From assembly GCA_032718475.1 (NCBI GenBank), contig JAUCBJ010008622.1:87826-151825 (forward strand): DNA of 64,000 bases, given 5' to 3'. The stretch is from Nemertoderma westbladi. Lineage: Eukaryota > Animalia > Xenacoelomorpha. The translations under genes were made by a program, and so were the position numbers. Shown here piece after piece: positions 9,413 through 51,982 of this stretch; the stretch's first letter is position 1, and every line of letters starts with the position of its first letter. The notes under the pieces were generated by a model, which was not told where the DNA came from, searched no databases, and was given only the letters and a program-made list of their open reading frames with translations.

Positions 9413-10739
9413 GTTTGTTTGTACAGTTGGATGCCTACTGCTATATTACAGCCTAAGCAAGTCTAGTAATTCAATATTAACTGTTAGCCTAGTAATTAAT
9501 TATCGATACTGCTACTCAGTGTAGCGTGATATATATATAATATATTAGAATATCGGTATGCTTATAGTATATATAAGTATTATTACGGACTAGGTTTATC
9601 ACAGAATACCGGTATAATTTTAGCACAAATATATATAAATATATAATAGGCCTATCGGGAATACCGGTATACAGCTTACAGTTTGTAGCATATATAAGTA
9701 TAATTCTGGACTAGAATTAATTATAAAGTACCGGTATAATTTCAGCCTAAATTTATAGAAATAAAGATAATAGGCCTATCGTAAATACTGGTATATCAAT
9801 TATTTTAAATAATTGAATTTCTGAACTTTAGGGTTACTTGGTTACTTTACTTACTTTATTACCGCTATTTGAGCAGTAGTCCAACTGATATTGAGACCTA
9901 ATGGTTGTGTGGTAGGCCTACTATTTATAAATCGTTAGATTTGATTTATAATATATATATACCCGTTTTAATGGGTTTTGTCAATGTTTGAAATAAATGT
10001 TATTATTTCTGGGGAGTAATCACTACACAAAGCGGTGCGCTTTCAGTGAAGTGTTACTTATAGGACACTTAAACAAATAATGCTAATTTACCTAAGTTAC
10101 TTAATACTACAAATTACGTACAATTCGGGTGAGATTACAATCTCTAAATAAACACAAAAATTTACAAAAAACACAAATACGAATTTTTAGGGTAATTTTA
10201 CAAGAAGTCTACAAACCAGCCTAACAAAGGGTTAGAAATCTGGTTATTACAACGGACAGGGTACTACGGTATTTGAAAATAATAAGTAGTAGTAAATACA
10301 CTGCGTTGTCCAGATAGGAAAATACCACCGCCTGACGACCTATAGCCGTATCGCTATAGGTTCTACGTTATGTATGACGGAGTGTTCCTACCTAGAAGTT
10401 AATAGAGCTAATCGAACGTGCCTATCAACCACTTTACAACACAAATATAATGCCTACACTAATTACTTTCGGAAAGCACTGTACACTAAACCCTAAATTA
10501 GGTACGAGTACTTGTACAACAGATAATCAGTAGTTAAATATACTTGAACAACTAAAAGAACCACGGCATCTGCTGGAGTGACCGGTGCACAAAATCACCA
10601 GTCTTTACCTACGCCAAGCAGCCCGTGTAGTACTGGGGTTAGTTTAACTATAACGGTATGTATAACAAACACAATTACTGTAGGAACAAACTTGGGGAAT
10701 GAATGTTGCGAATAATCGCATAAACTCTGAATAATAAAT

Positions 10740-14269: not shown

Positions 14270-14835
14270 CTGTCCTCGTGTTCAGTCTCCTTATATTTTA
14301 TTCTTCTACATCTTTAATTTCGTCTGTTTCGATTGATTCACAACAATATATATATACATATAAGCAACTGGCTGCTCCTATAGGCGCACATAGAGCAAAA
14401 ACACCACCTTCACCAATTTTAATTGATGTTAACGACGTATTGACTAACAGGGGGTTGTTATTAATATATTAACTTAAAGGAAGAACAGGAGTCTTACACC
14501 CCCAATAATTTTATTACTTTATATAATTACTCTCTTATTACTTTTTATTACTTGTTATTTTATACCCCCATTTTATTGGGGGTGTAAGAGTCATGTTCTT
14601 CCTTTAAGTTAATACCTTCACCAATGGTATTCGTAGTGGTTAAATATTGACAGTCAACATTTGATAACCAATGAACGCTGGTTGCTATATGTAATTGCCA
14701 GTACTCCTGGCCCAATTAGGAAATACCTCTGAATTGATTGTCCATGGGATGGCAGCCACACCAAAACCAATATATGCCATGAACAAGGTGACAGCCGTTA
14801 CAAGCAAATAGGAGTATCCAAAATATGGGATGCGG
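14270..14835 (-). pseudogene. Sugar-porter (myo-inositol transporter/HMIT-like) C-terminal fragment
   Basis: GVAAIPWTINSEVFPNWARSTGN resembles the PW..NSE..P.W.RS.G motif; a frameshift follows, then IGEGGVFALCA...IYCCESIET (degenerate last helix/PET region). Confidence 0.7.
14478..14603. mobile_element. Small TTAA-flanked MITE with AGG...CCT ends (Kolobok/T2-like)
   Basis: TTAA-AGGAAGAACA..CTTACACCCCCAATAA and its inverted repeat followed by TTAA. Confidence 0.7.
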
Positions 14836-15058
14836 ATCAACGATTTCGAGATATAAAGGCAGAAAAGATAATAATACAAGAGAAAAGTATGGACGACGCC
14901 AAGTTAGCCTAGTACTAAACTGCTTTACTCGAGCGAGATCTCCTAATCGAGGAGGATAGGGAAAGAGGGATCGAGCGGGAGTATGAACCCAGCCCCATCC
15001 ACGAGTTGGAGAAAACCAATCCATTCAAGGAACCCGCTCCTCTCCAACCTATCCTTAA

Positions 15059-16054: not shown

Positions 16055-18919
16055 TTAGTTTTCATAGACCCCTAAAACAATATTCCAGCGAGATCTAAGC
16101 GTAGACATACCAATAGAGTTACAGGTACGAAGTATAGGATTTGAAGATATTGAAACACGATGTAACAGTGAAAAAATAGCAGTACGACAAATTGATTTAA
16201 AAGTATTGATACGGTTCAAACAAAATAAAGTGTTGGCGTCTTCGGTACTACAATATGAAAATAATTGACGGAAAGCGTAATTGTAAGCTACCTTTAATCT
16301 ACGTAAGGATTCAACACGAAACACAGACCATAGAGAACAACAGTATAAGTTATAACAATAAGTTTTGAAAATAATGGATTTTATAGGTAAAGAGCATTTA
16401 TTAAACGTTCTGGCTAATTGATTACCACGACAATATAAGGTTGATTTCAAACGCTTAATGTCAGGTTCATCAGATAGGTTGCAACAGAGGGTATGCCCTA
16501 AGTAACAGTATTCTAGAACACAAGGGAGGATCATACCACAAAGGTATACGTCACCAGCTCGTCCAAATTGTGAAGGGATAAAATACATACACTTTGATTT
16601 AACGAAATTAAACATAACATCAAATTTAGCACCATAATCTTCACAAATTTTAAGTAAAGACCGTAAACCAAAAATACTGGGAGCCATTAAACTTAGATCA
16701 TCGGCATACAATAGATGGTTGATTACAATATTACCAACCTTACAACCTGCAGGACATTTGTTCAATAAAATACTTAAGTCATTCAAGTATATGTTAAATA
16801 GAAGAGGAGAAAGCAAACTACCCTGTCGTACACCATTACATACAGTGAAGGGTACGCTTGTTGCGCTGCCCCAACGTACCGCTAGCAATTGATTGGTATA
16901 CCAAAAATATAGTAAACGTATTACACCAAGGGGAACTTTAAGATAAATTAACTTTTTAAAAAGTTTTACATAATTAACACGGTCGAATGCCTTAGAAGCA
17001 TCCAAAAAAGCTGTAAAAGCAGGGGTGTCTCTAGATACAAAATAATGGACTGTCTCTTTAAATGCAAAAATACAGGTTTCAGTACCAAGACCGGGTTGAA
17101 ATCCAAACTGGTTCGGCGTGATATTCACACAATTCGTAATTAGCATAAGGAAGCAAAACTCTAACAACTTGGAACAAGCATTAGATGTGGCTATAGGTCT
17201 ATAATTTAACTGATCAGTAAGTTTATTGTTCTTATTTTTAACGATAGGCATTAAGTGACTGGTAATTAACGAGACTGGCAAAAACCCATGTGAAATAAAT
17301 GAATTGAATAGTAAACTAAGAACAACCGCCAATCGACACCCTGCATAATACCAGCACTCAGGCGCCAACTGGTCTGGCCCAGAAGCCTTACCAAGTTTAA
17401 GACTAGCTAAAGCCTCTTCCACATTCCTTGGGAAAATATGGATTCTATCAGATCCATCCCAAGTTTCAAACTTACTCTTTAAGAATGTAACGTCAGCCAA
17501 ATCAGGCTCTACACTATTATATGTAGATTCGTAGCCATTACTAAACAAATTGGCAATGTCCTCATCATTGTGGGCATTACCTATGATATTAGCACGTGGA
17601 ACTTTTGTGTTACAGTGTTTTTGGGCGCAGTGCCAAAAATCCTTGCTGGAAGACAGGAACGACTGAGCTAACTTGTCATTTCTTATTGTTGCTTCATTTT
17701 TTCTACAATTTTTCAGCGCCAGTTTATACTGCGCGCAACTTTTACGTTTTAATTCCCATAGAATTCCAGAGCGAGGTTTACCGTTATCCCTCCAGTGTTG
17801 AGAAGCTTCAATAGAGGCTTCGCGCTTCTCCTTAACGAAGTCGTTCCAGCCAGGAATATGGACCCGCTTGTTATTACTACAATTACCGGAAGAAGTTACT
17901 GGTATATGGATATCAGTGGCGGTGCTGAAAATATTACAGATTTCAGTGTAACAATTATCAAGCGCCCGTAAATGGACAACATTACTACAATGAACATCAC
18001 AGCAGATTATACTATCGAGAGGCAGAATCAAGTTGGAAAGATAGTCATTAACTTGATTTGTATAATTAAAAATGTTATTGGGCAATGCCTTGCTCCAATT
18101 AGGTACCGCAGTAAACTTGGGCTCACGATCAGCACAGCAGTGCTCCACTGAGCCCATGTTTATGTTGGTATCCATAGAAACCGGTATATGATCACTACCT
18201 ACCAAATTATATAAAAGCGAAATTTTAGATATAGAGGTATGAAAATCGTTACTAGAAATAATGTGATCAAGCCACGAGACAGAACCGTGGGCTGAACTAA
18301 TAAATGAGAAGGAATCAGTGGGTAATACAATTTTGTCTGAAAATGTAAGACCTGAAAAATTACAAAAACACTCCAGATTTTTACCAAAAGTATTAGCAGG
18401 GTTGGCGTTGAAATCGCCAATAATACAACTACGGCTACCGGGGTATTCGGTAACGATACCATGGCATTTACCCAGTAAAGAACTAAATAAATCACGATTA
18501 ATAGGTGAGTCACATGGAGCATATATGTTAATAAAAAGCACCAAATTACCATCCGAGGTAGCTACTGTGCAACCCAGGAGACGCTCATCGTCATATTGTA
18601 TACAAGTTACTAAGTGAGATATGGACTTTCTCCATAAGATAGCTAGACCCCCAAAGGGACGACCAGACCGGGGACCATCTGATAAGTCTACCGAGGAAAC
18701 CCCATACCCAAGAAATTCCGGATGTATAGAATTGAGTTTACTTAAGTCTTGCTTATAGAGCCACGTCTCTTGGAGAAATACAAGGTCATGTGAGTTACAT
18801 AGGTCGAGAATAACCACACCGTTGTTATTCAAACCCGAACAGTTATATGTACAAACTCTAAGTGGGGCCTGTATTGGATCCATTGCGATTTGCTGAGTCA
18901 CGACGAGGGCGCGAAACAA
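16055..18919 (-). CDS. LINE ORF2: AP endonuclease + reverse transcriptase
   Basis: LQET, GDFN, WLDH, SDH (endonuclease); FLDASKAFD, GVRQG, YADD (RT); 954 aa uninterrupted. Confidence 0.95.
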   Translation of the reverse strand: MFRALVVTQQIAMDPIQAPLRVCTYNCSGLNNNGVVILDLCNSHDLVFLQETWLYKQDLSKLNSIHPEFLGYGVSSVDLSDGPRSGRPFGGLAILWRKSISHLVTCIQYDDERLLGCTVATSDGNLVLFINIYAPCDSPINRDLFSSLLGKCHGIVTEYPGSRSCIIGDFNANPANTFGKNLECFCNFSGLTFSDKIVLPTDSFSFISSAHGSVSWLDHIISSNDFHTSISKISLLYNLVGSDHIPVSMDTNINMGSVEHCCADREPKFTAVPNWSKALPNNIFNYTNQVNDYLSNLILPLDSIICCDVHCSNVVHLRALDNCYTEICNIFSTATDIHIPVTSSGNCSNNKRVHIPGWNDFVKEKREASIEASQHWRDNGKPRSGILWELKRKSCAQYKLALKNCRKNEATIRNDKLAQSFLSSSKDFWHCAQKHCNTKVPRANIIGNAHNDEDIANLFSNGYESTYNSVEPDLADVTFLKSKFETWDGSDRIHIFPRNVEEALASLKLGKASGPDQLAPECWYYAGCRLAVVLSLLFNSFISHGFLPVSLITSHLMPIVKNKNNKLTDQLNYRPIATSNACSKLLEFCFLMLITNCVNITPNQFGFQPGLGTETCIFAFKETVHYFVSRDTPAFTAFLDASKAFDRVNYVKLFKKLIYLKVPLGVIRLLYFWYTNQLLAVRWGSATSVPFTVCNGVRQGSLLSPLLFNIYLNDLSILLNKCPAGCKVGNIVINHLLYADDLSLMAPSIFGLRSLLKICEDYGAKFDVMFNFVKSKCMYFIPSQFGRAGDVYLCGMILPCVLEYCYLGHTLCCNLSDEPDIKRLKSTLYCRGNQLARTFNKCSLPIKSIIFKTYCYNLYCCSLWSVFRVESLRRLKVAYNYAFRQLFSYCSTEDANTLFCLNRINTFKSICRTAIFSLLHRVSISSNPILRTCNSIGMSTLRSRWNIVLGVYEN

Positions 18920-20090
18920 AGTACTTCTTTACTAACACCCCTTCCGGCCATGACTCGCATTCGAGAAGTTTATTAGAATCCGCCTGGTTAGCGCAACTTA
19001 CAATGAAAGAGTTGTAAGAATTGTCATTCTTGTCAGGGTTCTCCGTAACGAGAGCGACTATATCATGGTTATCTTTAATGAAAGCGACAATCTCTTCTGA
19101 GGTTACTGTGGAGTCCAGTCTTGATATGAAAACCCGATTGTTAGAGGAAGATGGCTTCTTGGCCACCTGGAGGGCGGTAAAGTTGCCAGTACCAACTCTG
19201 GCTGGTGGCCGATTTCTCTCTTTCCGGTTACGAACGAGAGTAAACCCGTCGGGTACCTGAATGTCAGGTGGACCACCACGCCCGGTAACAGAACCGCTTG
19301 GTGGAGGAACGGTAGACATAGACGGGGGTTGTTGTAAAACGACATTAGAATACAATGGTGCTGGCGGAGCCGTTACAATGCTCGAAGATTCAGTAGGAAA
19401 AGGAGGAGATGCAGGAGATCTGTTCGCAGTCGCTCCATAAGTAGAAGTATTCATGGAAATAATACTTCCTGCAACATTGCAGAATCGAGAAGTGTCGCCA
19501 GTTGCACCGGCAACAGACAAAGCATTAACGGTAGCCAAGGCACACTTCATCGCTGTTTTCACTTCGACTAATTCAGCACGGGTCACAGTGTTCTTAAGAG
19601 CTTCAACATGACCAGACACCGTTTGATGTAGGTCGTTTACAAGGCTGTTGAGGTTCCTGAGTTCCTCCGCCTGGACCATGTCGTGAATGGAACGTTTATC
19701 TGAAGACGGAAGTCTTGAGGGATCAAGCGCAAAGAAGGTTGGTCGAGAGTCGGAGTCGACGAAGGCACTCTCTTGGAAAACGGCGTAGATATCACAAGCA
19801 TGAGCCTGGGATTTCTTTTTACCGATGCGTCCGATCCAGGCAGGTAGAGGACGGTCAGGAACTGCGCAACTCACAGCCTCTGAGTAGAGTAGTTGCTTCG
19901 CCGCCAGAATTTCCTCTCCAGAGTAAAAGTGGCAAATAACGGAAATCAAAGAAGATTTATTCAACCTTGACATTTCATACTGAATGAAACAAAGTAGCTC
20001 GTTGCGGATCAGTTGCGAGCGACCGGAACCAATCGACCGGAAGCAAAGAAGCGTCACCAAGGGGGGTAACATCGTTATCGTTAATGCCAT
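18858..20090 (-). CDS. LINE ORF1
   Basis: NELLCF..FYS.EEI..AK.LL N-terminal motif, coiled region, RRM-like C-terminus (VFISRL...YNSF...WPEGV); overlaps the ORF2 start. Confidence 0.8.
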   Translation of the reverse strand: MALTITMLPPLVTLLCFRSIGSGRSQLIRNELLCFIQYEMSRLNKSSLISVICHFYSGEEILAAKQLLYSEAVSCAVPDRPLPAWIGRIGKKKSQAHACDIYAVFQESAFVDSDSRPTFFALDPSRLPSSDKRSIHDMVQAEELRNLNSLVNDLHQTVSGHVEALKNTVTRAELVEVKTAMKCALATVNALSVAGATGDTSRFCNVAGSIISMNTSTYGATANRSPASPPFPTESSSIVTAPPAPLYSNVVLQQPPSMSTVPPPSGSVTGRGGPPDIQVPDGFTLVRNRKERNRPPARVGTGNFTALQVAKKPSSSNNRVFISRLDSTVTSEEIVAFIKDNHDIVALVTENPDKNDNSYNSFIVSCANQADSNKLLECESWPEGVLVKKYFVSRPRRDSANRNGSNTGPT

Positions 20091-21029
20091 CAGTTAGTAG
20101 AGAGTTGAAGTCGTCGTCATCAGAGTGATTAGTGTCTATACCTTCCAGATGACCCTGGGGTGTCAAAGAAGAACCACGTTTAATTCTACAACTTTCACAG
20201 AGAAGTCGGTTGAGAAACATAGACAGGATAACACGACCTTGTGGCCCAGAGGGAGTCTCTGCAACATTGCAGTCGATACAGCGCCGTGCCATTGCAGGCA
20301 ATAAGAAGCCCAAACGAGCTCGAAACGGATTATGGGTATTGGTACAGCAAAAAAAAGATTGATGTATGGCAGTACAGCAGTAGGCCTACTGCAGTACTGC
20401 TGGCACTATTTTAGTCCTATTACCTGAATGCATTATTAGAACAGAATTGTAATATTATTCGTTATAGTAGTAATTAGGTTATATATAAAGTAAATTGTAA
20501 ATGTATTACCACTCTCAGTTAAACCCACCAGCTGGAGAAGAATGTGCGAATGCAAACTCCAGGAATCGCTTTTGTAGAGTCGCCAAGCGGAAGGATAAGT
20601 TAGAATGGGTAATTAACTCGCCCTTCTTCGACCCAGGCAGCCCAGTAAATGTCCCATTCTCTCGCACCGAAGTTGAGCTTTGTATAAATAAACTGTTCGC
20701 GTTATTTTCAAATTTTGGTGGCGGGCATATATAAAAATAAACTTTAATGAACGATTATTCCCAAAAGTCCTGGACACCGTGTGAAAAACCCGGAACGATA
20801 AACCGACCTGGTAGCTAAGTGGCATTAAAACTAGCACTGAGTATTTTATTGGGCCGTTTCGACTGAGACATACATGTAAAATTGTAAAGCTTCCATGTGA
20901 CCCATTTATTTATTATATTAAGCAGGAATTGCACAAAGTAAGTACTGTATATTCTACATAAATTATTAACATTGGGTTGCTAGCAGAATAGTCGTAGTCT
21001 GTCCTCCTAGTGTCCAGAATATCTCAACT

Positions 21030-21595
21030 GTCCTCGTGTTCAGTCTCCTTATATTTTATTCTTCTACATCTTTAATTTCGTCTGTTTCGATTGATTCACA
21101 ACAATATATATATACATATAAGCAACTGGCTGCTCCTATAGGCGCACATAGAGCAAAAACACCACCTTCACCAATGATAATTGATGTTAACGACGTATTG
21201 ACTAACAGGGGGTTGTTATTAATATATTAACTTTAAAGGAAGAACAGGAGTCTTACACCCCCAATAATTTTATTACTTTTATGTAATTACTCTCTTATTA
21301 CTTTTTATTTTATACCCCCATTTTATTGGGGGTGTAAGAGTCATGTTCTTCCTTTAAGTTAATACCTTCCTTCACCAATGGTATTCGTAGTGGTTATTGA
21401 CAGTCAACATTTGATAACCAATGAACACTGGTTGCTATATGTAATTGCCAGTACTCCTGGCCCAATTAGGAAATACCTCTGAATTGATTATCCATGGGAT
21501 GGCAGCCACACCAAAACCAATATATGCCATGAACTGAACAAGGTGACAGCCGTTACAAGCAAATAGGAGTATCCAAATTATGGGATGCGTATCAA
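21030..21595 (-). pseudogene. Second copy of the sugar-porter fragment
   Basis: Same motifs within duplication copy B, with an extra frameshift. Confidence 0.65.
21237..21353. mobile_element. Duplicate of the small Kolobok/T2-like MITE
   Basis: Same TIRs and TTAA flanks as 14478-14603. Confidence 0.7.
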
Positions 21596-21813
21596 CGATT
21601 TCGAGATATAAAGGCAGAAAAGATAATGATACAAGAGAAAAGTATGGACGACGCCAAGTTAGCCTAGTACTAAACTGCTTTACTCGAGCGAGATCTCCTA
21701 ATCGAGGAGGATAGGGAAAGAGGGATCGAGCGGGAGTATGAACCCAGCCCCATCCACGAGTTGGAGAAAACCAATCCATTCAAGGAACCCGCTCCTCTCC
21801 AACCCATCCTTAA

Positions 21814-23258
21814 CCCTATTAAACCAGGGGGGGGGGGGGGTATCAATATGACCCGCCCCGTGGTTTTTTTTGTTATAACTCTGAAACAAACGCAGTGGAG
21901 AATCTGAAATTTTGTGACTTTTCCTAAAAATCTATTGACTTCTTGATAGTGAAAACGGTTTTCAAAATTATTAGGAAGTTTTCTAGTTATAGCACCATTT
22001 CTTAACCCTACTTTTGGTACTTTTTTGAGGCGTTTTTTGAAAATTACATTTCATGAAATATGATTTGTAACATCTCTATTTTTTATTTACACCAGTTTTT
22101 TGGTGTTTACAAGTAGATGGAATCTAAATTAATTTAGAAATTTCAAACTTTTTTCGGCGTGTGCCAATTTTGGTGCCAGCACCAAATTTTGAAATTTATG
22201 ACAAATTTGTAAATTGATTGTTTGAACCTGTTTTTTGCGCATTTGGAGTTTTTTGGGGTGCTGATTTCGATGGAATATATACGAGTTGCACCAAGAGTAT
22301 GAAACTTGTATTTTTCGGCGCGGTCTGCAAAATTTGGTGCCAGCACGAAATTTTGAAAATTCATTCAATAGTTAAATTGCTTGTGACAACTTGTTTCTCG
22401 CGTTTTAGAGGTTTATGGCGGTTCTGAATTCAATGAAATAAATAAATATCTATCTAGACATCTGAAACTTGTATTTTTCGGAAGTGGGTGCAATATTTGG
22501 TGCTAGCACCAAATTTTGAAAACCACCAAATATATCAATTAATTGTTTTAAATTGTTTCTTGCGTTATACGGGTTTGTAAGGGTTGCGGTTCTGAATTCA
22601 ATGGAATATGTAAACATTGCATAGGAGTGTTCAAACTTAAATTTTTCGCCGGTAGGTGTAAATTGTTGTGCCAGCACCAAATTTTGGAAAATAAGCAAAT
22701 TGATCATTAGATAGTATCATCTTGTTCCTTGCGGTATACGGGTTTATGAGGGTCCGGAATCCGATGGAATCAGCAAAAACCGCACTAGACATTTCAAACT
22801 TGTAGATTTTGGTGATGGGTACGAAATTTGGTGCTATCACCAAAATTTGCCATATTACGTCGAAAAAAACAATTAGCAATGATCTGGCAAATTAGAAATG
22901 TATTCCATTAGAATCAGGGTCCCAGAAAACCTAAAATTGTGAATTTATAGCATCGTATAAGTGAATTACAAATTTTGTGTTCAAACTGAAAAGTGCTAAA
23001 ACAGCCATTTATAGTAATTAGATCATTTTAAACACATTCCAATGGATTTTGCGCCAGAGAAAACCTAGTATTTAAAAAACAATTAGCCGAAAATTATAAC
23101 TTTCAAATATTATGAAAATTGTTCACTACTTGTAATTTTGGTGAAGCAACCACCCAGTACATTTTTTCGAAATGTATTTTTCGGTCGAATTCGCACTGTT
23201 AATGAGATTGACATACTAACAAAAAACGTTTTCGTTGAAATTTGTAGATTCTAGAGGG
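21814..23258 (+). mobile_element. CCCTATTA-family MITE lacking its 3' TIR
   Basis: Homologous to 45946-47501, with internal GGTGCTAGCACC/AAATTT repeats. Confidence 0.75.
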
Positions 23259-24179
23259 TAGTGGTGTTCTCTGTCTCCGAGCTCGTTAATGTTCATTATT
23301 TGCGTACATTTTTCCGCTGAATAAATCCGGGAGATCTCACCAAATATAATCTCGGATAGGTCTAATTAAGGACAATACTGTTGTATTGAAGACAACAGTC
23401 AAAAAGATCTACCAACAGTCAGAAAAACTCGCTAACAGTTAGATAATTGTCCCAGATAGTCTACCAACAGTCATGGGCTTCAAAAAATTCCGATTATCTA
23501 AATGGGGTTCTTTAAATTCGAAATAATCAAAATCATATCAGCTGATATCAGTAACTAAGGAAATTACATCATTCTGTACTGTACCATACAGCAGTAGGCA
23601 TATGGTTTATGGAACCGAAACAGTTGTTATCACAGTAGGCTATTATTACCAGCATGGTATCCGGGAACGGCGAGAGGTCGACGTTGGACTTGTTCAGTAG
23701 TTTAGTTTGTGGTACCAACACAAGTCAAAGTACTGAGGATTAAATTGCGAAGGACTGTTATTTGGTGTTGATGTAACAGACGAGTCTTCTTAATAATATG
23801 GCCGCGACTATACCGGTGGCGGCCATCAGTACCAGTACAGCGGTAGGATAGAAGAAAGGGGATCTGTACCCTCAGCCAGTAACGGACAAAGTACTTTCGA
23901 TTATTGATAGTAACAATGTGTTGGCAAGCTGTATTTTTCGAGGTGTGATGGGATGTGATGGGATTAGTCCTACAATTGCGCCAATAAAAGATAAGTTATT
24001 TTCGGTAAAATAAACTTATCATTCGAGGTAAAGACCCCTAGATCCCTTCCTATAATAAATGTATAATAACAAACACCTCGAAAAATACAGCTTGCCAACA
24101 CATTGTTACTATCAATAATCAAAAACTCAGGGGCTAATAAAATGGCAGCTGGCTTTGAAATTAATACTCCATATCTCAA

Positions 24180-24248
24180 GAACCTGTGGCCTAGTGGTTG
24201 TAGTCTCGGCTTCCACCTCGAGGTCCCAGGTTCGAATCCGACACCACG
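24180..24248 (+). promoter_or_regulatory. tRNA-derived Pol III promoter (first of 9 copies, +412 bp each)
   Basis: A box TGGCCTAGTGG at 24187-24197 and B box GGTTCGAATCC at 24229-24239; no intact cloverleaf. Confidence 0.8.
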
Positions 24249-24285
24249 CTGATGAGACCCAGTAAGGTCGAAACGCGTACGTGGT
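24243..24285 (+). ncRNA. Minimal type I hammerhead ribozyme (copies at 24243, 24655, 25067, 25479, 25891, 26303, 26715, 27127, 27539)
   Basis: ACCACG-CTGATGA-GACC-CAGTAA-GGTC-GAAAC-GC-GTA-CGTGGT: full catalytic core, 6-bp stem I, 4-bp stem II, palindromic ACGCGT stem III; predicted cut after 24279. Confidence 0.92.
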
Positions 24286-27200
24286 TTGGAGAGATATGAG
24301 ATATTAATTTCAAGAAAAATTACGCGATTCTTAAATTTGTACACTACCCGGTTAAAAAGTACGCATGTGATGGGATTAGTCCTACAATTGCGCCAATAAA
24401 AGATAAGTTATTTTCGGTAAAATAAACTTATCATTCGAGGTAAAGACCCCTAGATCCCTTCCTATAATAAATGTATAATAACAAACACCTCGAAAAATAC
24501 AGCTTGCCAACACATTGTTACTATCAATAATCAAAAACTCAGGGGCTAATAAAATGGCAGCTGGCTTTGAAATTAATACTCCATATCTCAAGAACCTGTG
24601 GCCTAGTGGTTGTAGTCTCGGCTTCCACCTCGAGGTCCCAGGTTCGAATCCGACACCACGCTGATGAGACCCAGTAAGGTCGAAACGCGTACGTGGTTTG
24701 GAGAGATATGAGATATTAATTTCAAGAAAAATTACGCGATTCTTAAATTTGTACACTACCCGGTTAAAAAGTACGCATGTGATGGGATTAGTCCTACAAT
24801 TGCGCCAATAAAAGATAAGTTATTTTCGGTAAAATAAACTTATCATTCGAGGTAAAGACCCCTAGATCCCTTCCTATAATAAATGTATAATAACAAACAC
24901 CTCGAAAAATACAGCTTGCCAACACATTGTTACTATCAATAATCAAAAACTCAGGGGCTAATAAAATGGCAGCTGGCTTTGAAATTAATACTCCATATCT
25001 CAAGAACCTGTGGCCTAGTGGTTGTAGTCTCGGCTTCCACCTCGAGGTCCCAGGTTCGAATCCGACACCACGCTGATGAGACCCAGTAAGGTCGAAACGC
25101 GTACGTGGTTTGGAGAGATATGAGATATTAATTTCAAGAAAAATTACGCGATTCTTAAATTTGTACACTACCCGGTTAAAAAGTACGCATGTGATGGGAT
25201 TAGTCCTACAATTGCGCCAATAAAAGATAAGTTATTTTCGGTAAAATAAACTTATCATTCGAGGTAAAGACCCCTAGATCCCTTCCTATAATAAATGTAT
25301 AATAACAAACACCTCGAAAAATACAGCTTGCCAACACATTGTTACTATCAATAATCAAAAACTCAGGGGCTAATAAAATGGCAGCTGGCTTTGAAATTAA
25401 TACTCCATATCTCAAGAACCTGTGGCCTAGTGGTTGTAGTCTCGGCTTCCACCTCGAGGTCCCAGGTTCGAATCCGACACCACGCTGATGAGACCCAGTA
25501 AGGTCGAAACGCGTACGTGGTTTGGAGAGATATGAGATATTAATTTCAAGAAAAATTACGCGATTCTTAAATTTGTACACTACCCGGTTAAAAAGTACGC
25601 ATGTGATGGGATTAGTCCTACAATTGCGCCAATAAAAGATAAGTTATTTTCGGTAAAATAAACTTATCATTCGAGGTAAAGACCCCTAGATCCCTTCCTA
25701 TAATAAATGTATAATAACAAACACCTCGAATAATACAGCTTGCCAACACATTGTTACTATCAATAATCAAAAACTCAGGGGCTAATAAAATGGCAGCTGG
25801 CTTTGAAATTAATACTCCATATCTCAAGAACCTGTGGCCTAGTGGTTGTAGTCTCGGCTTCCACCTCGAGGTCCCAGGTTCGAATCCGACACCACGCTGA
25901 TGAGACCCAGTAAGGTCGAAACGCGTACGTGGTTTGGAGAGATATGAGATATTAATTTCAAGAAAAATTACGCGATTCTTAAATTTGTACACTACCCGGT
26001 TAAAAAGTACGCATGTGATGGGATTAGTCCTACAATTGCGCCAATAAAAGATAAGTTATTTTCGGTAAAATAAACTTATCATTCGAGGTAAAGACCCCTA
26101 GATCCCTTCCTATAATAAATGTATAATAACAAACACCTCGAAAAATACAGCTTGCCAACACATTGTTACTATCAATAATCAAAAACTCAGGGGCTAATAA
26201 AATGGCAGCTGGCTTTGAAATTAATACTCCATATCTCAAGAACCTGTGGCCTAGTGGTTGTAGTCTCGGCTTCCACCTCGAGGTCCCAGGTTCGAATCCG
26301 ACACCACGCTGATGAGACCCAGTAAGGTCGAAACGCGTACGTGGTTTGGAGAGATATGAGATATTAATTTCAAGAAAAATTACGCGATTCTTAAATTTGT
26401 ACACTACCCGGTTAAAAAGTACGCATGTGATGGGATTAGTCCTACAATTGCGCCAATAAAAGATAAGTTATTTTCGGTAAAATAAACTTATTATTCGAGG
26501 TAAAGACCCCTAGATCCCTTCCTATAATAAATGTATAATAACAAACACCTCGAAAAATACAGCTTGCCAACACATTGTTACTATCAATAATCAAAAACTC
26601 AGGGGCTAATAAAATGGCAGCTGGCTTTGAAATTAATACTCCATATCTCAAGAACCTGTGGCCTAGTGGTTGTAGTCTCGGCTTCCACCTCGAGGTCCCA
26701 GGTTCGAATCCGACACCACGCTGATGAAACCCAGTAAGGTCGAAACGCGTACGTGGTTTGGAGAGATGTGAGATATTAATTTCAAGAAAAATTACGCGAT
26801 TCTTAAATTTGTACACTACCCGGTTAAAAAGTACGCATGTGATGGGATTAGTCCTACAATTGCGCCAATAAAAGATAAGTTATTTTCGGTAAAATAAACT
26901 TATCATTCGAGGTAAAGACCCCTAGATCCCTTCCTATAATAAATGTATAATAACAAACACCTCGAAAAATACAGCTTGCCAACACATTGTTACTATCAAT
27001 AATCAAAAACTCAGGGGCTAATAAAATGGCAGCTGGCTTTGAAATTAATACTCCATATCTCAAGAACCTGTGGCCTAGTGGTTGTAGTCTCGGCTTCCAC
27101 CTCGAGGTCCCAGGTTCGAATCCGACACCACGCTGATGAGACCCAGTAAGGTCGAAACGCGTACGTGGTTTGGAGAGATATGAGATATTAATTTCAAGAA

Positions 27201-28571
27201 AAATTACGCGATTCTTAAATTTGTACACTACCCGGTTAAAAAGTACGCATGTGATGGGATTAGTCCTACAATTGCGCCAATAAAAGATAAGTTATTTTCG
27301 GTAAAATAAACTTATCATTCGAGGTAAAGACCCCTAGATCCCTTCCTATAATAAATGTATAATAACAAACACCTCGAAAAATACAGCTTGCCAACACATT
27401 GTTACTATCAATAATCAAAAACTCAGGGGCTAATAAAATGGCAGCTGGCTTTGAAATTAATACTCCATATCTCAAGAACCTGTGGCCTAGTGGTTGTAGT
27501 CTCGGCTTCCACCTCGAGGTCCCAGGTTCGAATCCGACACCACGCTGATGAGACCCAGTAAGGTCGAAACGCGTACGTGGTTTGGAGAGATATGAGATAT
27601 TAATTTCAAGAAAAATTACGCGATTCTTAAATTTGTACACTACCCGGTTAAAAAGTACGCATGTGATGGGATTAGTCCTACAATTGCGCCAATAAAAGAT
27701 AAGTTATTTTCGGTAAAATAAACTTATCATTCGAGGTAAAGACCCCTAGATCCCTTCCTATAATAAATGTATAAAGTACTTTCGGAGCGAATACATTTCC
27801 ATGGGATACATTTCCGACCTCTCTGTCATGATTGTCTATTGTCGGGTATGAGAGATGGAATTCTTTATTTTCTATATACCCTATGTGTCTCCATTACTAC
27901 TAATATAATTATTTTTATGTTGTGTGCTATAGTTGTGATTATACTGTAGTTAGGTCATTTCATTCATGTGTTTATTTGGTGTAATAGTAATAATTTGTAC
28001 TGTAGTAAGTTCGTTTTGTGCAATATTCACTACTATCTCATACTGTATAAGAATTTATATTTAAGCAACAGAATGTACCACTACCGGTTACCAATTCATT
28101 ATCTGATTTAGTGATTGATAATGGCTGCGATCTGCAGTTGAAATATATTTATTTTGCCTAGGCCCTACCGTACTGCCGTACCGATTCGAATTGTATATAT
28201 AGTACCTAATATACTGCTTGACAATTATATTTTATACTCCGAATTAAACTTATTATTTTCTTAATATAATTATTAATAAACATTTTTTTAATAATTTTAC
28301 TTTTGTCCAGAACGACCACATTAACTTGCTAAGAAGTGACCTAACTATTTGTTTTTATTCAAAAGGGAAACCAATACAAATTCTATATGTTCCCTTGCAT
28401 AATGGTCGAATTATTAATAATAGCCTTTTTATATATATAAATTTAATATATCTTAATAGTAAATAATAAAGTTAATTGCTTTAATAAAAAAAATCTATGA
28501 ATTATTCAAAAAGTTAAAGTAATATTAATATAATATATATATACTGTGCTTTATTAGATTATATTTATTAC

Positions 28572-28781
28572 CAAAACAAGGTGTTGGACAAATCCCCCAG
28601 TTCCCTGATTCCGGGCCGCCCACATAGTATCCACTTTCAGCGGCTTCTTCGGTAATAGCACACCAATAGTTATTGGGGATGGATACAGAATCAAAAATAC
28701 ATTCATAGTAATCGACTGGGTCAGTTTCATTAGCTTTCTGAGGAAATATGCAAAGACTATCGCCATTTGTTATACACGAGT
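28572..28781 (-). CDS. Host gene exon, fibronectin type II-like domain (not in the ORF track)
   Basis: 210 nt, acceptor ttacag, donor gtaata, phase 1-1; SCITNGDSLCIFP...YYEC...NYWCAIT...GNWGICPTPCF. Confidence 0.8.
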
Positions 28782-29239
28782 CTGTAAAAAAATAACAATA
28801 TAAGTTAGAGACCTACAGAATACAATATCGGCCGATGTAGGAACTTTTTTTGCATTGTTTAATCAAGTCAGTCCAGGAGGAAGTTGCCATGTTTGTAAAA
28901 AGTCTATTGTATCAGAATGGCGCCAAAAATGATGTTTGCATTTCCAGCAATATTTTTTACTAGTTTAATCAAGATGAGCGACCTTGAAAACACATATACC
29001 TTCAGAATTATGAAAACAAACACAAAACTTTTTAGTTTGAAATTTTCTTGTACTTTTCATCCTGGGGGACCAAAATATTACCAAAAATGATGGTTGCATT
29101 GCCAGAAAATATTTTTTAACAAGTTTTATCATGATCAGCGACCTCGAAAAGCATTATACCATCAACATTGTAATTTTCGAGCCAAGATCTAAAAAAGTTA
29201 TAAAATGACCCCCCTAACTATATACGTAGTAAAACACGT

Positions 29240-36640: not shown

Positions 36641-38419
36641 TTTGGTCTGTACTTTGTTTGTGTAAGTCTGTACGGGTAGCGTATAATTTTATTTAGATAA
36701 TTTGTAGGCTGGATAGTTGTCTGGCTGTTATTAGGTCTGAACGGATTGCCGCGTGTGTAGATCATCTGTCCGATTAAGTACGGTTAGGCAGTAGGGGCAG
36801 CGAACGCTGTAAGGTAAACCCCCAACTAAAGAATAAGTCGCACTACTGGGTTAGAGCGCATACTCCCTAATCATTTCGGAGTCTGCATATACCGTAGTTT
36901 GTTTAGGCTTGATAGTAGTCTGTCAGTGTTCGGTCTGTATTTTGTTTGAGTAGTTTGTACGCGTAGCGTAATATTTATTATTCAGAGTTTATGCGATTAT
37001 CCGCAACATTCATTCCCTAAGTTTGTTCCTACAGTAATTGTGTTTGTTATACATACCGCTATAGTTAAATTAACCCCGGTACTACACGGGCTGCTCGGCG
37101 TAGGTAAAGACTGGTGATTTTGTGCATCGGTCACTCCAGCAGATGCCGTGGTTCTTTTAGCTGTTCAAGTATATTTAACTACTGATTATCTGTTGTACAA
37201 GTACTCGTACCTAATTTAGGGTTTAGTGTACAGTACTTTCCGAAGTAATTAGTGTAGGCATTATATTTGTGTTGTAAAGTGGTTGATAGGCACATTCGAT
37301 TAGCTCTATTAACTTCTAGGTAGGAACACTCCGTGATACATAACGTAGAACCTATAGCGATACGGCTATAGGTCGTCAGGCGGTGGTATTTTTCTATCTG
37401 GACAACGCAGTGTATTTACTACTACTTATTATTTTCAAATACCGCAGTACCCTGTCCGTTGTAATAACCAGATTTCTAACCCTTTGATTAGGCTGGTTTG
37501 TAGACTTCTTGTAAAATTACCCTGAAAATTCGTATTTTGTGTTTTTTGTAAATTTTTGTGTTTATTTAGAGATTATAATCTCACCCGAATTGTACGTAAT
37601 TTGTAGTATTAAGTTAAGTAACTTAGGTAAATTAGCATTATTTGTTTTAGTGTCCTATAAGTAACACTTCACTGAAAGCGCACCGCTTTGTGTAGTGATT
37701 ACTCCCCAGAAATAATAACATTTATTTCAAACATTGACAAAAACCCATTTCAACGGGTATATATATATTATAAATCAACTCAAACAATTTATAAATAGTA
37801 GGCCTGCCATACAACAATTAGGTCTCAATATCAGTTGGACTACTGCTTAAATAACGGTAATAAAGTAAGTTAAAGTAACCAAGTAACCCTTAAAATTCAG
37901 AAATTCAATTATTTAAAATAATTGATATACCGGTATTTACGATAGGCCTATTATCTTTATTTCTATAAATTTCGGCTGAAATTATACCAGTACTTGTAAT
38001 TAATTCTAGCCCAGAATTATATATACTACAAACTGTAAGCTGTATACCGGTATTCCCGATAGGCCTATTATATATATATAAATTTAGGCTGAAATTATAC
38101 CGGTACTCTGTAATTAATTCTAGTCCAGAATTATACTTATATATACTATACTATAAGTGTAAGCTGTATACCGGTATTCCCGATAGGCCTATTATATATT
38201 TATATATTTGTGCTAAAATTATACCGGTATTCTGTGATAAACCTAGTCTGTAATAATACTTATATATACTATAAGCATACCGGTATTCTAATATTATATA
38301 TATCATGCTACACTGAGTAGCAGTATCGGTAATTAATTACTAGGCTAGCCGTTAATGCTGAATTACTAGACTTGCTTAGACTGTAATATAGCAGTAGGCA
38401 TTGAACTGTACAATCAAAC

Positions 38420-41400
38420 ATGTCTGACTCACAACAAACATTGTCAGATAGTCTTTTAGAGGGTGTTAGAATGAGTATTAGACTTAGACAGCGTCTTAAA
38501 AGGATCTGTGACCAAGATCAAAGTATGGAACATCCCAGACCAAAGTCTAAGTCCCCTCCTACTGTGCGAAAGATCATCCCTCAAGTAGTCCCCTCAGACC
38601 CTAGGCTAGTCCAACATCGTAGGTCTATCATAGGCACTCGAGCTCAGGTCAAGCGGGACCAAGAAGCAGCGGAACCTCAACAACCCGCGAGCCAAGAACT
38701 TACTTCTCAACGGCCCGATAGCTCCAGTAGTTCGGATACTGTTGAGCGGACGCCCGAACGCGGAGCGAAGATGGCGGATAAGGTTTATGATGAGCGGCCA
38801 ACCTATGAAGAATCAACCGACGCCACTTCTTCTCAAGAAGAAAGCGAAGTGACAGCAGAGAAACCGCATAAGAGGGATGCTATTGACATCTATCTGTCAG
38901 ACTATCAACGCTTTGTAGGAGATGAAGAGTTGAGGAGAAGGCTGGAGGGGCTTAGTAGTGAAGGAACCAAGCTTGTGCTGGACGCAATCGATGCGGAAAT
39001 GTTAGCTGCGAACCAAGCTAAATTTGATGAACTCCTCCGCATCACTAGAGACCAAGAAGAACAAGTAAAGAAAAAACGTATAGAAGACAGAAAGAAAGCA
39101 GCAGTGGTAGCTGCAGAAGCAGAAAGAAAAGCGGCAGCGGCAGAGGCAGCGGCAGAGGCAAAGGCGGCCGAGGCTGAAAGAAAGGCAGCAGAGGCAGTGG
39201 CAGAAGCCGAACGGAGAGCAACTGAAGAAACCACCCAATTAGAATTGGAAAACATTCAGGAGAATCAAGACTGCATAAATAAACAGTTAACAGCTAGTAA
39301 TATGCAGATGATGAATCGATCTACTCCCAAAAGACAGGGATATACATCATCTGAGGAAGGCGATACCACCGATACTGAAGGCAAAGGAAATAGATCTCGT
39401 CTAAGCAGACGTAGAAGAACATCCCACCGTCAGAAATTGCCTGATTTGCCTCCAGCTGTTAGAAGGCAACTAAATAACACCAACTTAGGTAGTACAGAAC
39501 CCACAGACCAAATAATTAAAATAGAAAGACTCCCTACTATAGTAGATGAGCCTGAAATAATTAGGCCTGTTCTTGAAATCACCCCTTCGGTGATAGACAC
39601 ACCTCTGCTCCCTGAAGTTACCTCTAAATTCCCTCTGCACAGCACTAAGCTACCTGTGCCCAGTAGAACAGCCCATGAGGCAGTTCAGGTCCTGGACCCC
39701 GAGCGAAATATTCCTGATTTGTCGCCCGTTGTCCCTCGTCCGCCCGCTACAACGTTGGCGACTCCCGCTTCGGCGGTCGAATGGGTGGATGAGAGACGGT
39801 GGGGGATGGATCTCCTGCTCGGGCAGATGCAGGAGACCGTTCAGCAATTCAAGGGCACAGTAAGGGAAAGTAGGTTAGAGTTGCAAAAGGTGCAGCAAAG
39901 TATCGCGTTAGAACGCGATAAATTAGTGAACACACAAAAGGGTATACCACCACCCCCTGTAACAATATGTCAACCCGTTAGGTCTGAAGTATCCCATGCG
40001 CAAGGTGTGGAGCCTACACGCATCTATACTGCTAGCGAAGTAGAAACTCCTATAGTAAACCCTATTAAGGGTAATTATAAACCTGTTGATAATGACATTC
40101 CCTATAGACCTGATCATAATCCGAGAAATTTATATACCGATAACTCGATATTAAATAACACGATGGCCCAAGAAAGTTTTACACGACATATGGCTAGAAC
40201 CGAAGCCCGGCAAGCGGTAAAGGTTGGAGAGATCGTCAAGTTTAATGGAGATGAGATGAAATGGTTACCTTTTAATGAATATTATAAAGATAACATACAG
40301 GACTCTGTGCTATCCAACGGAGAGAAACTTAGATTTCTCATCGAGTGCTTGGAAGGACCTCCCAAGTCAATGGCGTTAAAGTTTATTGGACATCCAGATG
40401 GATTAAGACAAGTTTGGGACACACTAAACATCAGGTATGGTAATAGGAATAACATAGCTGGGTATTTGTATGCAAAGTTGGTAGCGCCCCGAAAGTTTAT
40501 TAGCAGCGGGATTATAGAGTTTTCCGATGAAATTCAGGAGATCTGCAGACAATTAGATTGGCTAGGTAAGTCTCATGAGTATCAGAGTGCTATGGTTATT
40601 AGAGCAGTGGCTTCTACTTTACCGAAGGGTGGAGTAGGTACACGCTAGGACAAGAAAGTGTTATACATGATGGAACAACAACAACGAGACCCTACCATGA
40701 CTGATCTCATGACATTCTTGGATGGCGAAGTGAAATTACAGCTCATAAAGCAGTCCAGAGAGAAGACATCGGAAAACAAGGTAAGTGAGAAACCCGTCTC
40801 CAGGAGAAAGGTAACACCAGTGTGTTATACCGACGATGGCGAAAGCCAGACTTCTCAAGGAGAGGACAGCGGAAAAGACACTGAAAGATCTTATGATGGC
40901 CATAAAACACCTAACGAACAGGGAAGTAAATTTAAGTCTCGATCCAATGACAAGAGAGAACAGGTAAGAAAAACTCCTCTTACGTCTCCCAAGAGAATTC
41001 AGGTGAGAAAGCCCGAAGAAAGAACGAGAGTGCACAATGTTACCCAAAATAAGGTAAGTAACATCAAACCGAAATGTGCGCTGTGTAACGGGACCCACCG
41101 TTTGAATATGTGTGATGAATTCCTGAAGAAATCATTAACGGAGAGACGAGAAGTCATGTGGGATAAGCGGTTATGTTATAATTGCCTCAGACAAGGACAC
41201 CAACGGCGAACCTGCTACTCTGACATAAGGTGTGCAAAGTGTGGTGCGAAACATCATATCTTGTTGCACACTGAATTCGAACGAAGCAGCCCGAGTCAGG
41301 TAAGTGAGTCCGAACAACTACATGTCCAATTCAGTGATGTGAACGACACTGATCAATCTGAGATGGAAGGATTCTATACGGACGAGTTCTCCGACGAAAA

Positions 41401-42814
41401 CGAATCCTGTTACATGATAAATACTGCAGTGTATCGAGCACTCAGATATGAAAAAGATACGGACAGCGACCTCACTCTAACTACTTCTGATCGACAACCA
41501 TCTTGGAAAGCGCCAACTTCCAATATAGGAATCCGAGAATTTCCTGTAGTCCAGTTACGGGTCCACGGACCTCAGAAGAGCTATATAGTGAACGCCCTCC
41601 TGGACTCCGGTAGCACAGGAACATTCATCGATAAAGAACTAGCCGAAGTCATCTTTGCTGGACAACCCAAGTTCCGAACCAAGCTAAACATGTCAGGGAT
41701 CATGCAGGTTTGGAATTCTACTGTAGCTGCCGACTATTATATAGGTGAGTTGTCCACTCCACAGGATAAACTAGGAGAATACAGTATAAGGTCAGTCAAA
41801 ATGGTGGCAATAAAGAACTTCGCTACCACCCAAGTGGAACCTTATAATTGGGACGAAGATGATCATGCCCAACAACTTAACATCCCTAGATTCGACACCG
41901 ATTATCCTGGAGTACAAATATTAATCGGTCAAAACGCGCATGAGGCGCTGGAGACATTGGAGAAACGACCTGCTCAACCGCAACCGCTTCAGACCTATGC
42001 GGTAAGAACTAGAGTAGGTTGGTACCTTACTGGACCTTCCCGAAGAACGCTCAGAGAAAGACTGCTTCAAGATCGCGTCTGCCAGGTGAGTGAATGGGAA
42101 GACGATACTAGTGAGGGAGACGACCCAACTGAGGGAACACCACACTCCTCAGATAATGACAATCTTAACTCCAATGTAGATCAATGGAGATATTGCCCCA
42201 AGACGATGAATATAGCCGACATCGCTTCCAGAGGAGCAACTCCTCAAGAACTGACAGATACTCCAGACCGGCTAGGTGAACCCGACTTCCTGAGTAAGGA
42301 GGATGAATGGCCTCCCCATCTTACTCCTACTGAGATTAGACCAGCCAAGGGAGCGGAGAGAGTCAAACCTAAAACCCGGACGGGTGGATCGGAGTTATTT
42401 GAACCCGGGATAGATCTGTCGGTATTACATATTGCCAGGGACGACGCCGTGGATCTGGACCTCCCCACCGCGAGTGGATCCTTCATGAAGATCAGAGGGA
42501 GCGATTGGAGCTCTGGAACATCAGACGTCTCGCAGGGACTCTTACCTCTCCTGCAGGGAGCGACGGACCACTATAGCTCCTGGAATCGGCTTTGTAACGC
42601 CGTCATATACTTTGAGCGATGTTTCTATCGTCACTATTCCAGGACGAAGAGGAAACCTGGAATTGTATTCGGGATGCAGCGACTCAATCACCCAGTCGGT
42701 CGTTTGTGTTTACCGGAAGGGAATGGAGGACTCTCCGGAAACTGTGGAAGGCAAGATTCTCTTCCCACGACCACCTCCCTAATCCTTCAAACATCTAGGG
42801 ACTCCATAACGTAA
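38420..42814 (+). pseudogene. BEL/Pao gag-protease polyprotein (1464 codons, one internal TAG at 40646)
   Basis: ORFs 38420-40648 and 40658-42814 are in one frame; copy 1 has Trp at the stop position. Confidence 0.9.
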
Positions 42815-51600: not shown

Positions 51601-51982
51601 TCTAATGGAAAGGCCAGCGACCATCGATATGCGGGGTGTAGATCCAGACGACATACACTCCCGCCAAAGTTGGAAAGTCGCTAAAGCAATCAGCGCAGAG
51701 TATTGGAGGAGGTGGGTCGAGGAATACCTACCCACGCTCCATAAAATAAGCAAGTGGAGGAAGCCGAACAGGGAGTTAAGAGAGGGAGATCTCGTAATCG
51801 TTACGGATGATACTATCATCAACAACCAGTGGCGGTTGGCGAGAGTTGTAGGCACTTACTCCGATGAGGACGGAAGAGTCCGATCGGTAGAAGTGCGGTT
51901 AGGTGGCAAGATAGGTGCAAAGGACAGAAAAACCTACAGAAGAGCAGTAGGGAAATGCTGTCTGTTAGAAGGGGCACCTTAA
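48653..51982 (+). pseudogene. BEL/Pao pol: RT, RNase H, integrase (frameshift near 49655)
   Basis: YYLPLH, LRMVVDAS, DIEGMF, FYVDD; FSDAS, PKLEL, WTDS, NPAD..SRG; H..HGG..CQTC, GVD, SDNGTNF; integrase Glu position reads GRLV. Confidence 0.93.

What the first reader, a model, noticed from the sequence alone, without database searches (positions are those of the whole stretch)
23888..27784. tRNA-head + hammerhead ribozyme 412-bp array inserted as one event (retrozyme-like circular RNA element)
Seen: 9 almost identical units (about 4 substitutions noticed in total), each with Pol III A/B boxes running directly into a complete type I hammerhead. The whole 3.9-kb array lies between 12-bp direct repeats (AAAGTACTTTCG) and starts and stops at arbitrary points of the unit, not at the tRNA head. 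Known: metazoan non-LTR retrozymes and schistosome Sm-alpha are tandem hammerhead repeats that yield monomeric or circular RNA. Inference: a 412-nt circular RNA was reverse-transcribed about 9 times round and integrated by a borrowed RT; the family may be undescribed.
Basis: partly seen in the sequence, partly recalled or inferred. Interest (0 to 1): 0.9.

Follow-up and report, generated by a model that had tools for sequence, protein, structure and literature searches.

The report
Penelope-style insertion of tRNA-hammerhead repeat
Nine head-to-tail copies of a short non-coding unit, each with a tRNA-like promoter sequence and a predicted self-cutting RNA motif, sit in a freshly duplicated target site whose two ends suggest copying by a Penelope-type jumping-gene enzyme, likely from a small circular RNA.

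Summary
The array is real: 9.27 copies of a 412-bp unit with 4 substitutions, A/B boxes running into a type I hammerhead, and a 12-bp target duplication. Other individuals carry the uninterrupted site. Two corrections. Second, the ends are not arbitrary: in public DNA of this high-copy family, junctions to unrelated flanks pile up at unit positions 166-167 and 103-116, and this insertion uses one at each end. Two fixed ends bounding a roughly 55-nt tail, plus an inverted arm, match the published Penelope-like (PLE) signature. The hammerhead has a 1-2 bp helix III with a palindrome, so it probably cuts only as a dimer. Best reading: an Sm-alpha-like, promoter-bearing non-LTR retrozyme inserted by a borrowed PLE enzyme priming both DNA strands. 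A circular template is likely but not shown; no RNA, cleavage or partner PLE was seen. The scan noted the same footprint in other genomes. New member of a known kind.

The parts
23888..23899 (+). Left copy of the 12-bp target-site duplication
   Evidence: single-copy (empty) form of the site in public contigs
23900..23946 (-). Inverted 47-bp arm = unit phases 167 to 121 (phase 1 = 23953); starts at the family's commonest end site E1 and stops 7-9 nt short of E2
   Evidence: exact reverse complement; 51 of 52 when extended into the duplication; loose ends at 24119/23900
23944..23963 (+). Joint of the two arms: 3-nt microhomology and a 10-nt direct duplication of unit phases 2-11
23953..27774 (+). 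Forward array, 9.27 x 412 bp, 4 substitutions, ending at phase 112-114 (end site E2)
   Evidence: loose ends at 24055-24068
23999..24002 (+). Only T4 run of the unit (repeats every 412), 232 nt after the tRNA-like head; possible leaky Pol III terminator
   Evidence: function inferred
24065..24119 (+). 55-nt 'tail' between end sites E2 and E1, 69% A+C against 55% for the unit (repeats every 412)
24154..24314 (+). Predicted RNA domain: a long outer helix enclosing the tRNA-like head and the hammerhead (z -5.9)
24184..24250 (+). Decayed tRNA-like head with A box 24187-24197 and B box 24229-24239; its 3' end is the 5' strand of hammerhead helix I (9 copies)
24243..24285 (+). Type I hammerhead: helix I 6 bp, helix II 4 bp, minimal helix III with palindrome 24273-24278, predicted cut 24279|24280 (9 copies; the unit 7 copy has G26728A in the first pair of helix II)
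27773..27784 (+). Right copy of the 12-bp target-site duplication
23698..23887 (.). Left half of the low-copy repeat that was interrupted
   Evidence: paralogous contigs (record 2)
27785..27816 (.). Right half of the interrupted low-copy repeat
   Evidence: paralogs leave the window's sequence after 27814-27816

Best explanation
This is one young insertion of an abundant non-coding repeat family with a tRNA-like head and a type I hammerhead motif in each 412-bp unit, likely copied into this site by the enzyme of a Penelope-like retrotransposon (PLE) and likely from a circular monomer RNA.

Steps. (1) Inferred: Pol III reads from an A/B box through the T4 run into the next units of a tandem copy. 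(2) Predicted: two adjacent hammerheads pair through their ACGCGU palindromes and cut out 412-nt monomers. A lone hammerhead is nearly inactive, so a ligated circle would stay closed. (3) Inferred from the junctions: the enzyme nicks both target strands 12 nt apart and primes reverse transcription from both nicks, at two fixed sites on the RNA, E1 (phase 167) and E2 (phase 112-116). (4) Inferred: the E1 copy stalls after 47 nt just before E2, while the E2 copy runs 3,822 nt, nine times round. (5) Shown as sequence, inferred as process: the two copies join through a 3-nt microhomology with a 10-nt slip, leaving inverted arm, array and 12-bp duplication. Confidence is about 0.7 for PLE-type single-event insertion and about 0.45-0.5 that the template was a circle.
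For: Anatomy.

Fixed ends (18 of 607 loose-end rows shown). At 24119 (phase 167) 15 contigs in X1 and 15 in X2 leave into long, mutually unlike flanks (median 189 and 157 nt, agreement 0.43 and 0.40). There are also 9 at 24118, 7 at 24064 and 7 at 24068 in X1, and 6 at 23900 and 6 at 24055 in X2. All are sense-strand 3' ends. If the 395 partly laid X1 contigs were spread evenly, the chance of 15 at any phase is about 7e-11.

PLE signature in print. An inverted 5'-truncated copy and a 30-40 bp tail on one end only (Craig et al., passages). The anole PLE protein cuts and extends both strands and starts RT at two internal sites that bound the tail (PMC11167929, parts 1-2 of 4).

Empty site. Two X2 contigs run from left-flank-like sequence (27 of 30 matches by eye) through one 12-mer into the right flank, one with 0 mismatches over 42 bases.

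Single template. All 9 units carry the minority allele at phases 78, 174 and 379, where 70-96% of laid depth in X1 and X2 has another base.

Circle rather than cut monomer. E2 lies 197 nt after the cut site, so 3,822 nt across 9 cut sites needs a circle or an uncut 10-mer. The double hammerhead scores -32.9 kcal/mol against 2 x -6.7 for monomer folds; the circle folds at z -4.25 against 60 shuffles.
Against: The partner is missing: no PLE or GIY-YIG frame was found among 140 window frames scanned, no genome is held, and no sequence shared with a PLE pLTR was shown. The tail here is 51-55 nt, longer than the 30-40 bp in print, and no clear stem-loop is predicted there (-2.7 kcal/mol). Three of the 4 substitutions fall within 277 bp of unit 7 (P 0.055), which fits a linear multimer from a slightly heterogeneous donor array better than a single circle. 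For the anole PLE, unprocessed RNA was the main template and hammerhead mutants did not change insertion. Each unit holds a T4 run that could stop Pol III at 232 nt. Only 1 of 9 predicted Xenopus retrozyme dimers cleaved in vitro. The empty-site contigs could be a near-identical paralog, since the target is itself a repeat.
Confidence: 0.68

Rival explanations
1. Same PLE-type insertion, but the template was an uncleaved linear multimer (10 or more units) transcribed by read-through from a homogeneous donor array, not a circle. This is a variant inside the main reading.
For: [quoted passage not shown] Three substitutions cluster in unit 7 (P 0.055). The weak hammerhead may often fail to cut.
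Against: It needs nine read-throughs of T4 and nine uncut hammerheads in the tandem context where the double hammerhead is favoured. The short arm stopping 7-9 nt before E2 fits either template.
Confidence: 0.25
2. A short copy (about 1.3-2.3 units) was inserted PLE-style, and the array then grew in place by unequal crossover or slippage.
For: It explains the shared private alleles equally well. Local amplification of retrozyme satellites is proposed in bioRxiv 10.64898/2026.07.22.740005.
Against: The locus looks very young: uninterrupted sites occur in other samples and both duplication copies and the inverted arm are perfect. None of the 4 substitutions is shared between units, as stepwise duplication would tend to produce.
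Confidence: 0.15
3. A tRNA-derived SINE mobilised by an ordinary LINE, with the inversion made by L1-type twin priming.
For: tRNA-like head, 12-bp duplication, 5' inversion with 4 of 5 bases of microhomology at the left nick. Two APE/RT-type LINEs lie in the window.
Against: No poly(A) or simple-repeat tail, and two fixed internal ends shared across the family. The forward arm does not begin where the inverted arm was primed (phase 1 against 167), as twin priming would give (recalled; one search was listings only). BLAST of the unit finds nothing better than E 3.2 elsewhere in the window, LINE ends included.
Confidence: 0.08
4. The number of units is an assembly artefact of a collapsed or over-extended repeat.
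For: Units are 99.9% alike, and no raw long read was available.
Against: Four unit-specific substitutions and two distinct, interpretable junctions. The family and both end sites are seen in independent runs. An artefact could change the count, not the anatomy.
Confidence: 0.04

Closest known systems
Schistosome Sm-alpha / Sj-alpha hammerhead SINE-like repeats (review PMC6765202, passages; PMC2770079, passages; the primary paper PMC108972 was not held)
   Same: Pol III promoter followed by a hammerhead in each unit, tandem copies, tRNA-derived, very high copy number.
   Different: The S. mansoni elements are linked to tRNA-Gln-TTG; here the anticodon-like loop reads TCC(A). The passages read describe linear monomers and name no PLE partner, fixed ends or inverted arm. 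No sequence comparison with Sm-alpha could be made.
Metazoan non-LTR retrozymes (PMC7229834, sections 14 and 17 and passages; bioRxiv 10.64898/2026.07.22.740005, parts 1-3 of 5)
   Same: Tandem 150-450 bp units, type I hammerhead, GC below 45% (39% here), target duplication longer than 4 bp, no coding frame, PLE proposed as partner.
   Different: PMC7761336 (passages) says retrozymes seem to lack promoters and any motif that points to their partner; this unit has A/B boxes and fixed end sites. Circular RNA was shown for coral, mussel and axolotl, not here.
Penelope-like elements and their pLTR/tail insertions (PMC8557442 and its preprint, passages; PMC11167929, parts 1-2 of 4), including non-autonomous Chlamys such as MRC1
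   Same: Partial tandems, inverted 5'-truncated arm, tail on one end only, two internal start sites, A+C-rich start region.
   Different: No RT or GIY-YIG frame; tail 51-55 nt rather than 30-40; canonical (helix I 6 bp, helix II 4 bp) rather than minimal PLE-type hammerhead (PMC4209133, passages); tRNA-like head.

Membership tests
Metazoan non-LTR retrozyme | Tandem units of about 150-450 bp, GC below 45-50% | tested here: met
   412 bp, 39% GC, 9.27 copies
Metazoan non-LTR retrozyme | Type I hammerhead in every unit | tested here: met
   9 of 9 by motif, 0 of 20,000 shuffles; Rfam HH9 below gathering score
Metazoan non-LTR retrozyme | Non-coding; target duplication longer than 4 bp | tested here: met
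   Only a 145-codon stop-to-stop antisense frame per unit (not scanned against Pfam); 12-bp duplication with empty site. PBS/PPT not searched.
Metazoan non-LTR retrozyme | Dispersed multi-copy family | tested here: met
   1648 (X1) and 4063 (X2) contigs laid, many unlike flanks
Metazoan non-LTR retrozyme | Expressed as linear and circular monomer RNA | not testable with these tools
   Only assembled contigs were available; a self-closing contig cannot tell a circle from tandem DNA
Metazoan non-LTR retrozyme | Self-cleavage as monomer or dimer | not testable with these tools
   Energy model only
Sm-alpha-type hammerhead SINE | tRNA-derived A/B boxes directly upstream of the hammerhead | tested here: met
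   (cloverleaf only at relaxed ARAGORN threshold)
Sm-alpha-type hammerhead SINE | Pol III transcription into multimers | not testable with these tools
   T4 run 232 nt downstream leaves this open
Sm-alpha-type hammerhead SINE | Sequence homology to Sm-alpha; schistosome host | not tested
   No Sm-alpha sequence was available from the tools; host taxon unresolved (best hit 39% identity)
Non-autonomous PLE-mobilised element | Inverted 5'-truncated arm and tail on one end only | tested here: met
Non-autonomous PLE-mobilised element | Two fixed internal 3' ends across the family | tested here: met
   table 7; spacing 51-55 nt, longer than 30-40
Non-autonomous PLE-mobilised element | Autonomous PLE in the genome sharing pLTR/tail sequence | tested here: inconclusive
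   None in 140 window frames; no genome held
Autonomous PLE | RT plus GIY-YIG reading frame | tested here: not met
   No such frame in the insert
LINE-mobilised tRNA SINE | 5' end at the tRNA head, 3' poly(A) or LINE-derived tail | tested here: not met
   Ends lie at phases 112-116 and 167, mid-unit; no tail; no match to the window's LINEs

The most novel reading that the evidence does not exclude
A tRNA-headed retrozyme with its own Pol III promoter makes a 412-nt circle whose lone hammerhead is silent. A dimeric Penelope enzyme docks on a 55-nt tail of that circle and primes from both target strands at once: one RT stalls against the other after 47 nt while the second rolls nine times round. 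This locus would be a direct genomic record of rolling-circle reverse transcription, and the element a SINE-like parasite of Penelope rather than of LINEs.
Probability: 0.4. Interest if true: 0.7.

Novelty: new member of a known kind. Interest (0 to 1): 0.5.

Why it matters
The papers read propose, but do not show, that PLE enzymes copy retrozyme circles into tandem arrays. This family supplies base-level predictions: two RT start sites (phases 167 and 112-116), a 12-nt nick stagger, and a short arm that stops where the second RT would sit. These can be tested directly with the published in vitro PLE assay. It also joins two groups usually treated apart, promoter-less retrozymes and Pol III-driven Sm-alpha. 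The architecture itself is known, and the scan has noted similar footprints in other genomes, so the surprise is moderate.

Tried and rejected
Whole genome: none held. Rfam at gathering threshold: 0 hits. The mir-31 and MIR8007 hits come from the inverted arm pairing with unit 1 and were rejected. No Rfam tRNA match at E up to 10. Sequencing runs: no RNA holder listed.

Run X4 (organism B, RNA only a guess) gave one 441-nt contig that closes on itself at 411 nt. Tandem DNA or contamination gives the same picture, so it is not used as evidence. No contig clearly showed the filled right junction; holes prove nothing. An X1 contig ending exactly at 23899 could mean heterozygosity or a paralog; left undecided. 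Summed depth (about 4e5 on the unit against 50-130 on flanks) is not a copy number.

Two exact patterns found 0 matches in metagenome contigs. A B-box-then-hammerhead pattern gave 16 viral loci; 0 of 16 had a full helix II and none matched the unit. The LINE ORF2 search did not place the host. Gene conversion of unit 7 from a typical family member was rejected, because it keeps the private alleles at phases 78 and 174. No earlier scan finding by sequence or in this genome.

Literature searches listed no paper that maps PLE-type junctions of a retrozyme array; most hits were seen as listings only. bioRxiv supplements were not seen and may bear on this.
Full report
Observation. The array runs 23953-27774 with period 412 and 9.27 copies. 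Eight full units were compared with unit 2: units 5 and 7 differ, by 1 and 3 substitutions, and the rest are identical. The 12-mer occurs twice in the window, at 23888-23899 and 27773-27784; a repeat this long arose in 12 of 17,515 random position pairs. Each of the 9 full units has an A box and a B box 42 nt apart, a pairing seen in 60 of 20,000 shuffles. ARAGORN sees no tRNA by default and a 67-nt tRNA-like fold at 80% of its threshold, so the head is a decayed tRNA. Its last bases are the 5' strand of hammerhead helix I. The hammerhead motif arose in 0 of 20,000 shuffles and matches Rfam HH9 below the curated score. The window is repeat-rich, with BEL/Pao, piggyBac-type and LINE frames and two sugar-transporter exons, as expected of an animal genome. 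The host taxon was not placed.

Between the left duplication and the array lie 47 bases that are the exact reverse complement of unit phases 121-167, counting phase 1 at 23953. They join the array through a 3-nt microhomology and a 10-nt duplication of phases 2-11. The array's right end is phase 112-114. The two arms therefore end about 55 nt apart on the unit, and the short arm stops 7-9 nt before the point where the long arm ends.

The family. Four public runs were laid on 23400-24400: 1648 contigs in X1, 4063 in X2, 95 in X5 and 1 in X4. The unit is thus an abundant, variable family in organism A. The loose-end table shows 18 of 607 rows. Rows with long, mutually unlike flanks fall at 24119 (15 contigs in X1, 15 in X2), 24118 (9), 24064 (7) and 24068 (7) in X1, and 23900 (6) and 24055 (6) in X2. 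I set aside the rows at 23953 and 24125, whose loose parts are short (median 9-12 nt) continuations of the unit, and the single-contig rows. The retained rows are phases 166-167 and 103-116, all sense-strand 3' ends. Fifteen at one phase has a chance of about 7e-11 if the 395 partly laid X1 contigs were spread evenly; insertions shared between samples are not independent. The ends are therefore fixed, not arbitrary, and this insertion uses one at each side. At phases 78, 174 and 379, 70-96% of laid depth in X1 and X2 carries another base, while all 9 units here carry the minority base. The array thus descends from one template haplotype.

The target. On 27761-27960, 15, 26, 9 and 1 contigs were laid from X1, X2, X3 and X5 (X2 and X3 are one sample). 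Two X2 contigs continue left of the 12-mer into sequence matching the window's left flank at 27 of 30 bases by eye. One of them has no mismatch over 42 bases at about single-locus depth. Further contigs in X1, X2 and X3 are diverged paralogs with a single copy of the site. The 12-mer is therefore a true duplication made when the element entered a low-copy repeat. The orthologous empty allele is likely present, but a near-identical paralog cannot be excluded.

The ribozyme. Helix I has 6 bp and helix II 4 bp; helix III is one pair around the palindrome ACGCGU. PMC4209133 (passages) describes this as the canonical metazoan form, which cuts poorly alone and well as a dimer, and notes that this would spare monomeric circles. 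My model gives -32.9 kcal/mol for the double hammerhead against -6.7 for each monomer fold, with a dimer minimum of -35.2. Head and hammerhead sit inside a long predicted helix (z -5.9), and the monomer circle folds better than 60 shuffles (z -4.25). Unit 7 has lost the first pair of helix II. No cleavage or RNA was observed.

Mechanism. PLE insertions often carry an inverted truncated copy and a 30-40 bp tail at one end. The purified anole PLE protein cuts and extends both strands and starts RT at two internal sites that bound the tail. The present anatomy follows if the top-strand nick primed at phase 167 and the bottom-strand nick at phase 112-114, with 4 of 5 and 2 bases of microhomology. 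E2 is only 197 nt from the cut site, so a cleaved linear monomer cannot be the template; it was a circle or an uncut multimer of ten units. I favour the circle because the tandem context favours cutting and each unit has a T4 run. Against it, 3 of 4 substitutions cluster in 277 bp (P 0.055), and the anole enzyme mainly used unprocessed RNA. Growth in place after a short insertion is not excluded, because contigs cannot count units per locus. No PLE frame was found in 140 window frames (12; 128 chosen from 279 candidates), so the partner is inferred from the footprint alone.

Comparison. The unit works like Sm-alpha, described as a Pol III promoter followed by a hammerhead in tandem (review passages), and meets the testable features of non-LTR retrozymes. 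Retrozymes are said to lack promoters and partner motifs, and their mobilisation by PLEs is proposed from co-occurrence and pLTR homology. I stated the PLE reading, before seeing that the scan had noted similar footprints in other genomes, some with tRNA heads and some with hammerheads (8 notes shown). Those notes are unchecked and are not evidence here.

Verdict. A real, young, probably polymorphic insertion of a tRNA-headed hammerhead retrozyme with a Penelope-type footprint. It is a new member of a known kind, useful mainly because it gives exact predictions for an assumed but unshown copying step. Interest 0.5.

Noticed in passing
records 7 (X1, 1706 nt), 12 and 15 (X2, 1702 and 1297 nt), 24 (X5, 1831 nt, depth 401): Long contigs share only 110-160 bases of the unit at about 85-92% identity, several over the B box and hammerhead. 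They may be a related longer element or the autonomous partner; their sequences could not be retrieved.
   Followed up: no
run X4 (organism B), laid on window 23953-24364: One 441-nt contig closing on itself at 411 nt, with the family's majority alleles plus a one-base deletion at 24120 that is a minority in organism A DNA (11,179 of 118,938 depth in X1). It may be an expressed copy, a sister species or contamination.
   Followed up: partly
window 14688-14903 (-) and 21438-21779 (-): Two frames match the same part of Pfam Sugar_tr (profile positions ending at 388), suggesting a duplicated exon. The array may lie in an intron of such a gene, antisense to it.
   Followed up: partly
window 16055-20093 (-): Apparently intact LINE with a 411-codon upstream frame and a 957-codon endonuclease-RT frame; closest database protein 39% identical.
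   Followed up: partly
window 4883-9445 (-) and 38405-42814 (+); 48626-51982 (+): Two related copies of a BEL/Pao gag-like region (DUF1759) in opposite orientation, and a BEL/Pao pol with one in-frame stop.
   Followed up: no
window 59605-62840 (+): Second RT-bearing LINE fragment, apparently split by a 162-163 bp repeat block at 61083-61817.
   Followed up: no
window 46254-46980, 58549-58973, 61083-61817, about 22100-23260: Dispersed blocks of a diverged 162-163 bp repeat at about 75% identity.
   Followed up: no
window 28528-28812 (-): Cysteine- and tryptophan-containing frame that by eye resembles a fibronectin type II module (recalled); no Pfam match at E 0.005.
   Followed up: partly
window 26492, 26728, 26768: Three transitions in one unit; A26768G lies in the long predicted helix, where A-to-I editing could act. 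Not tested.
   Followed up: no
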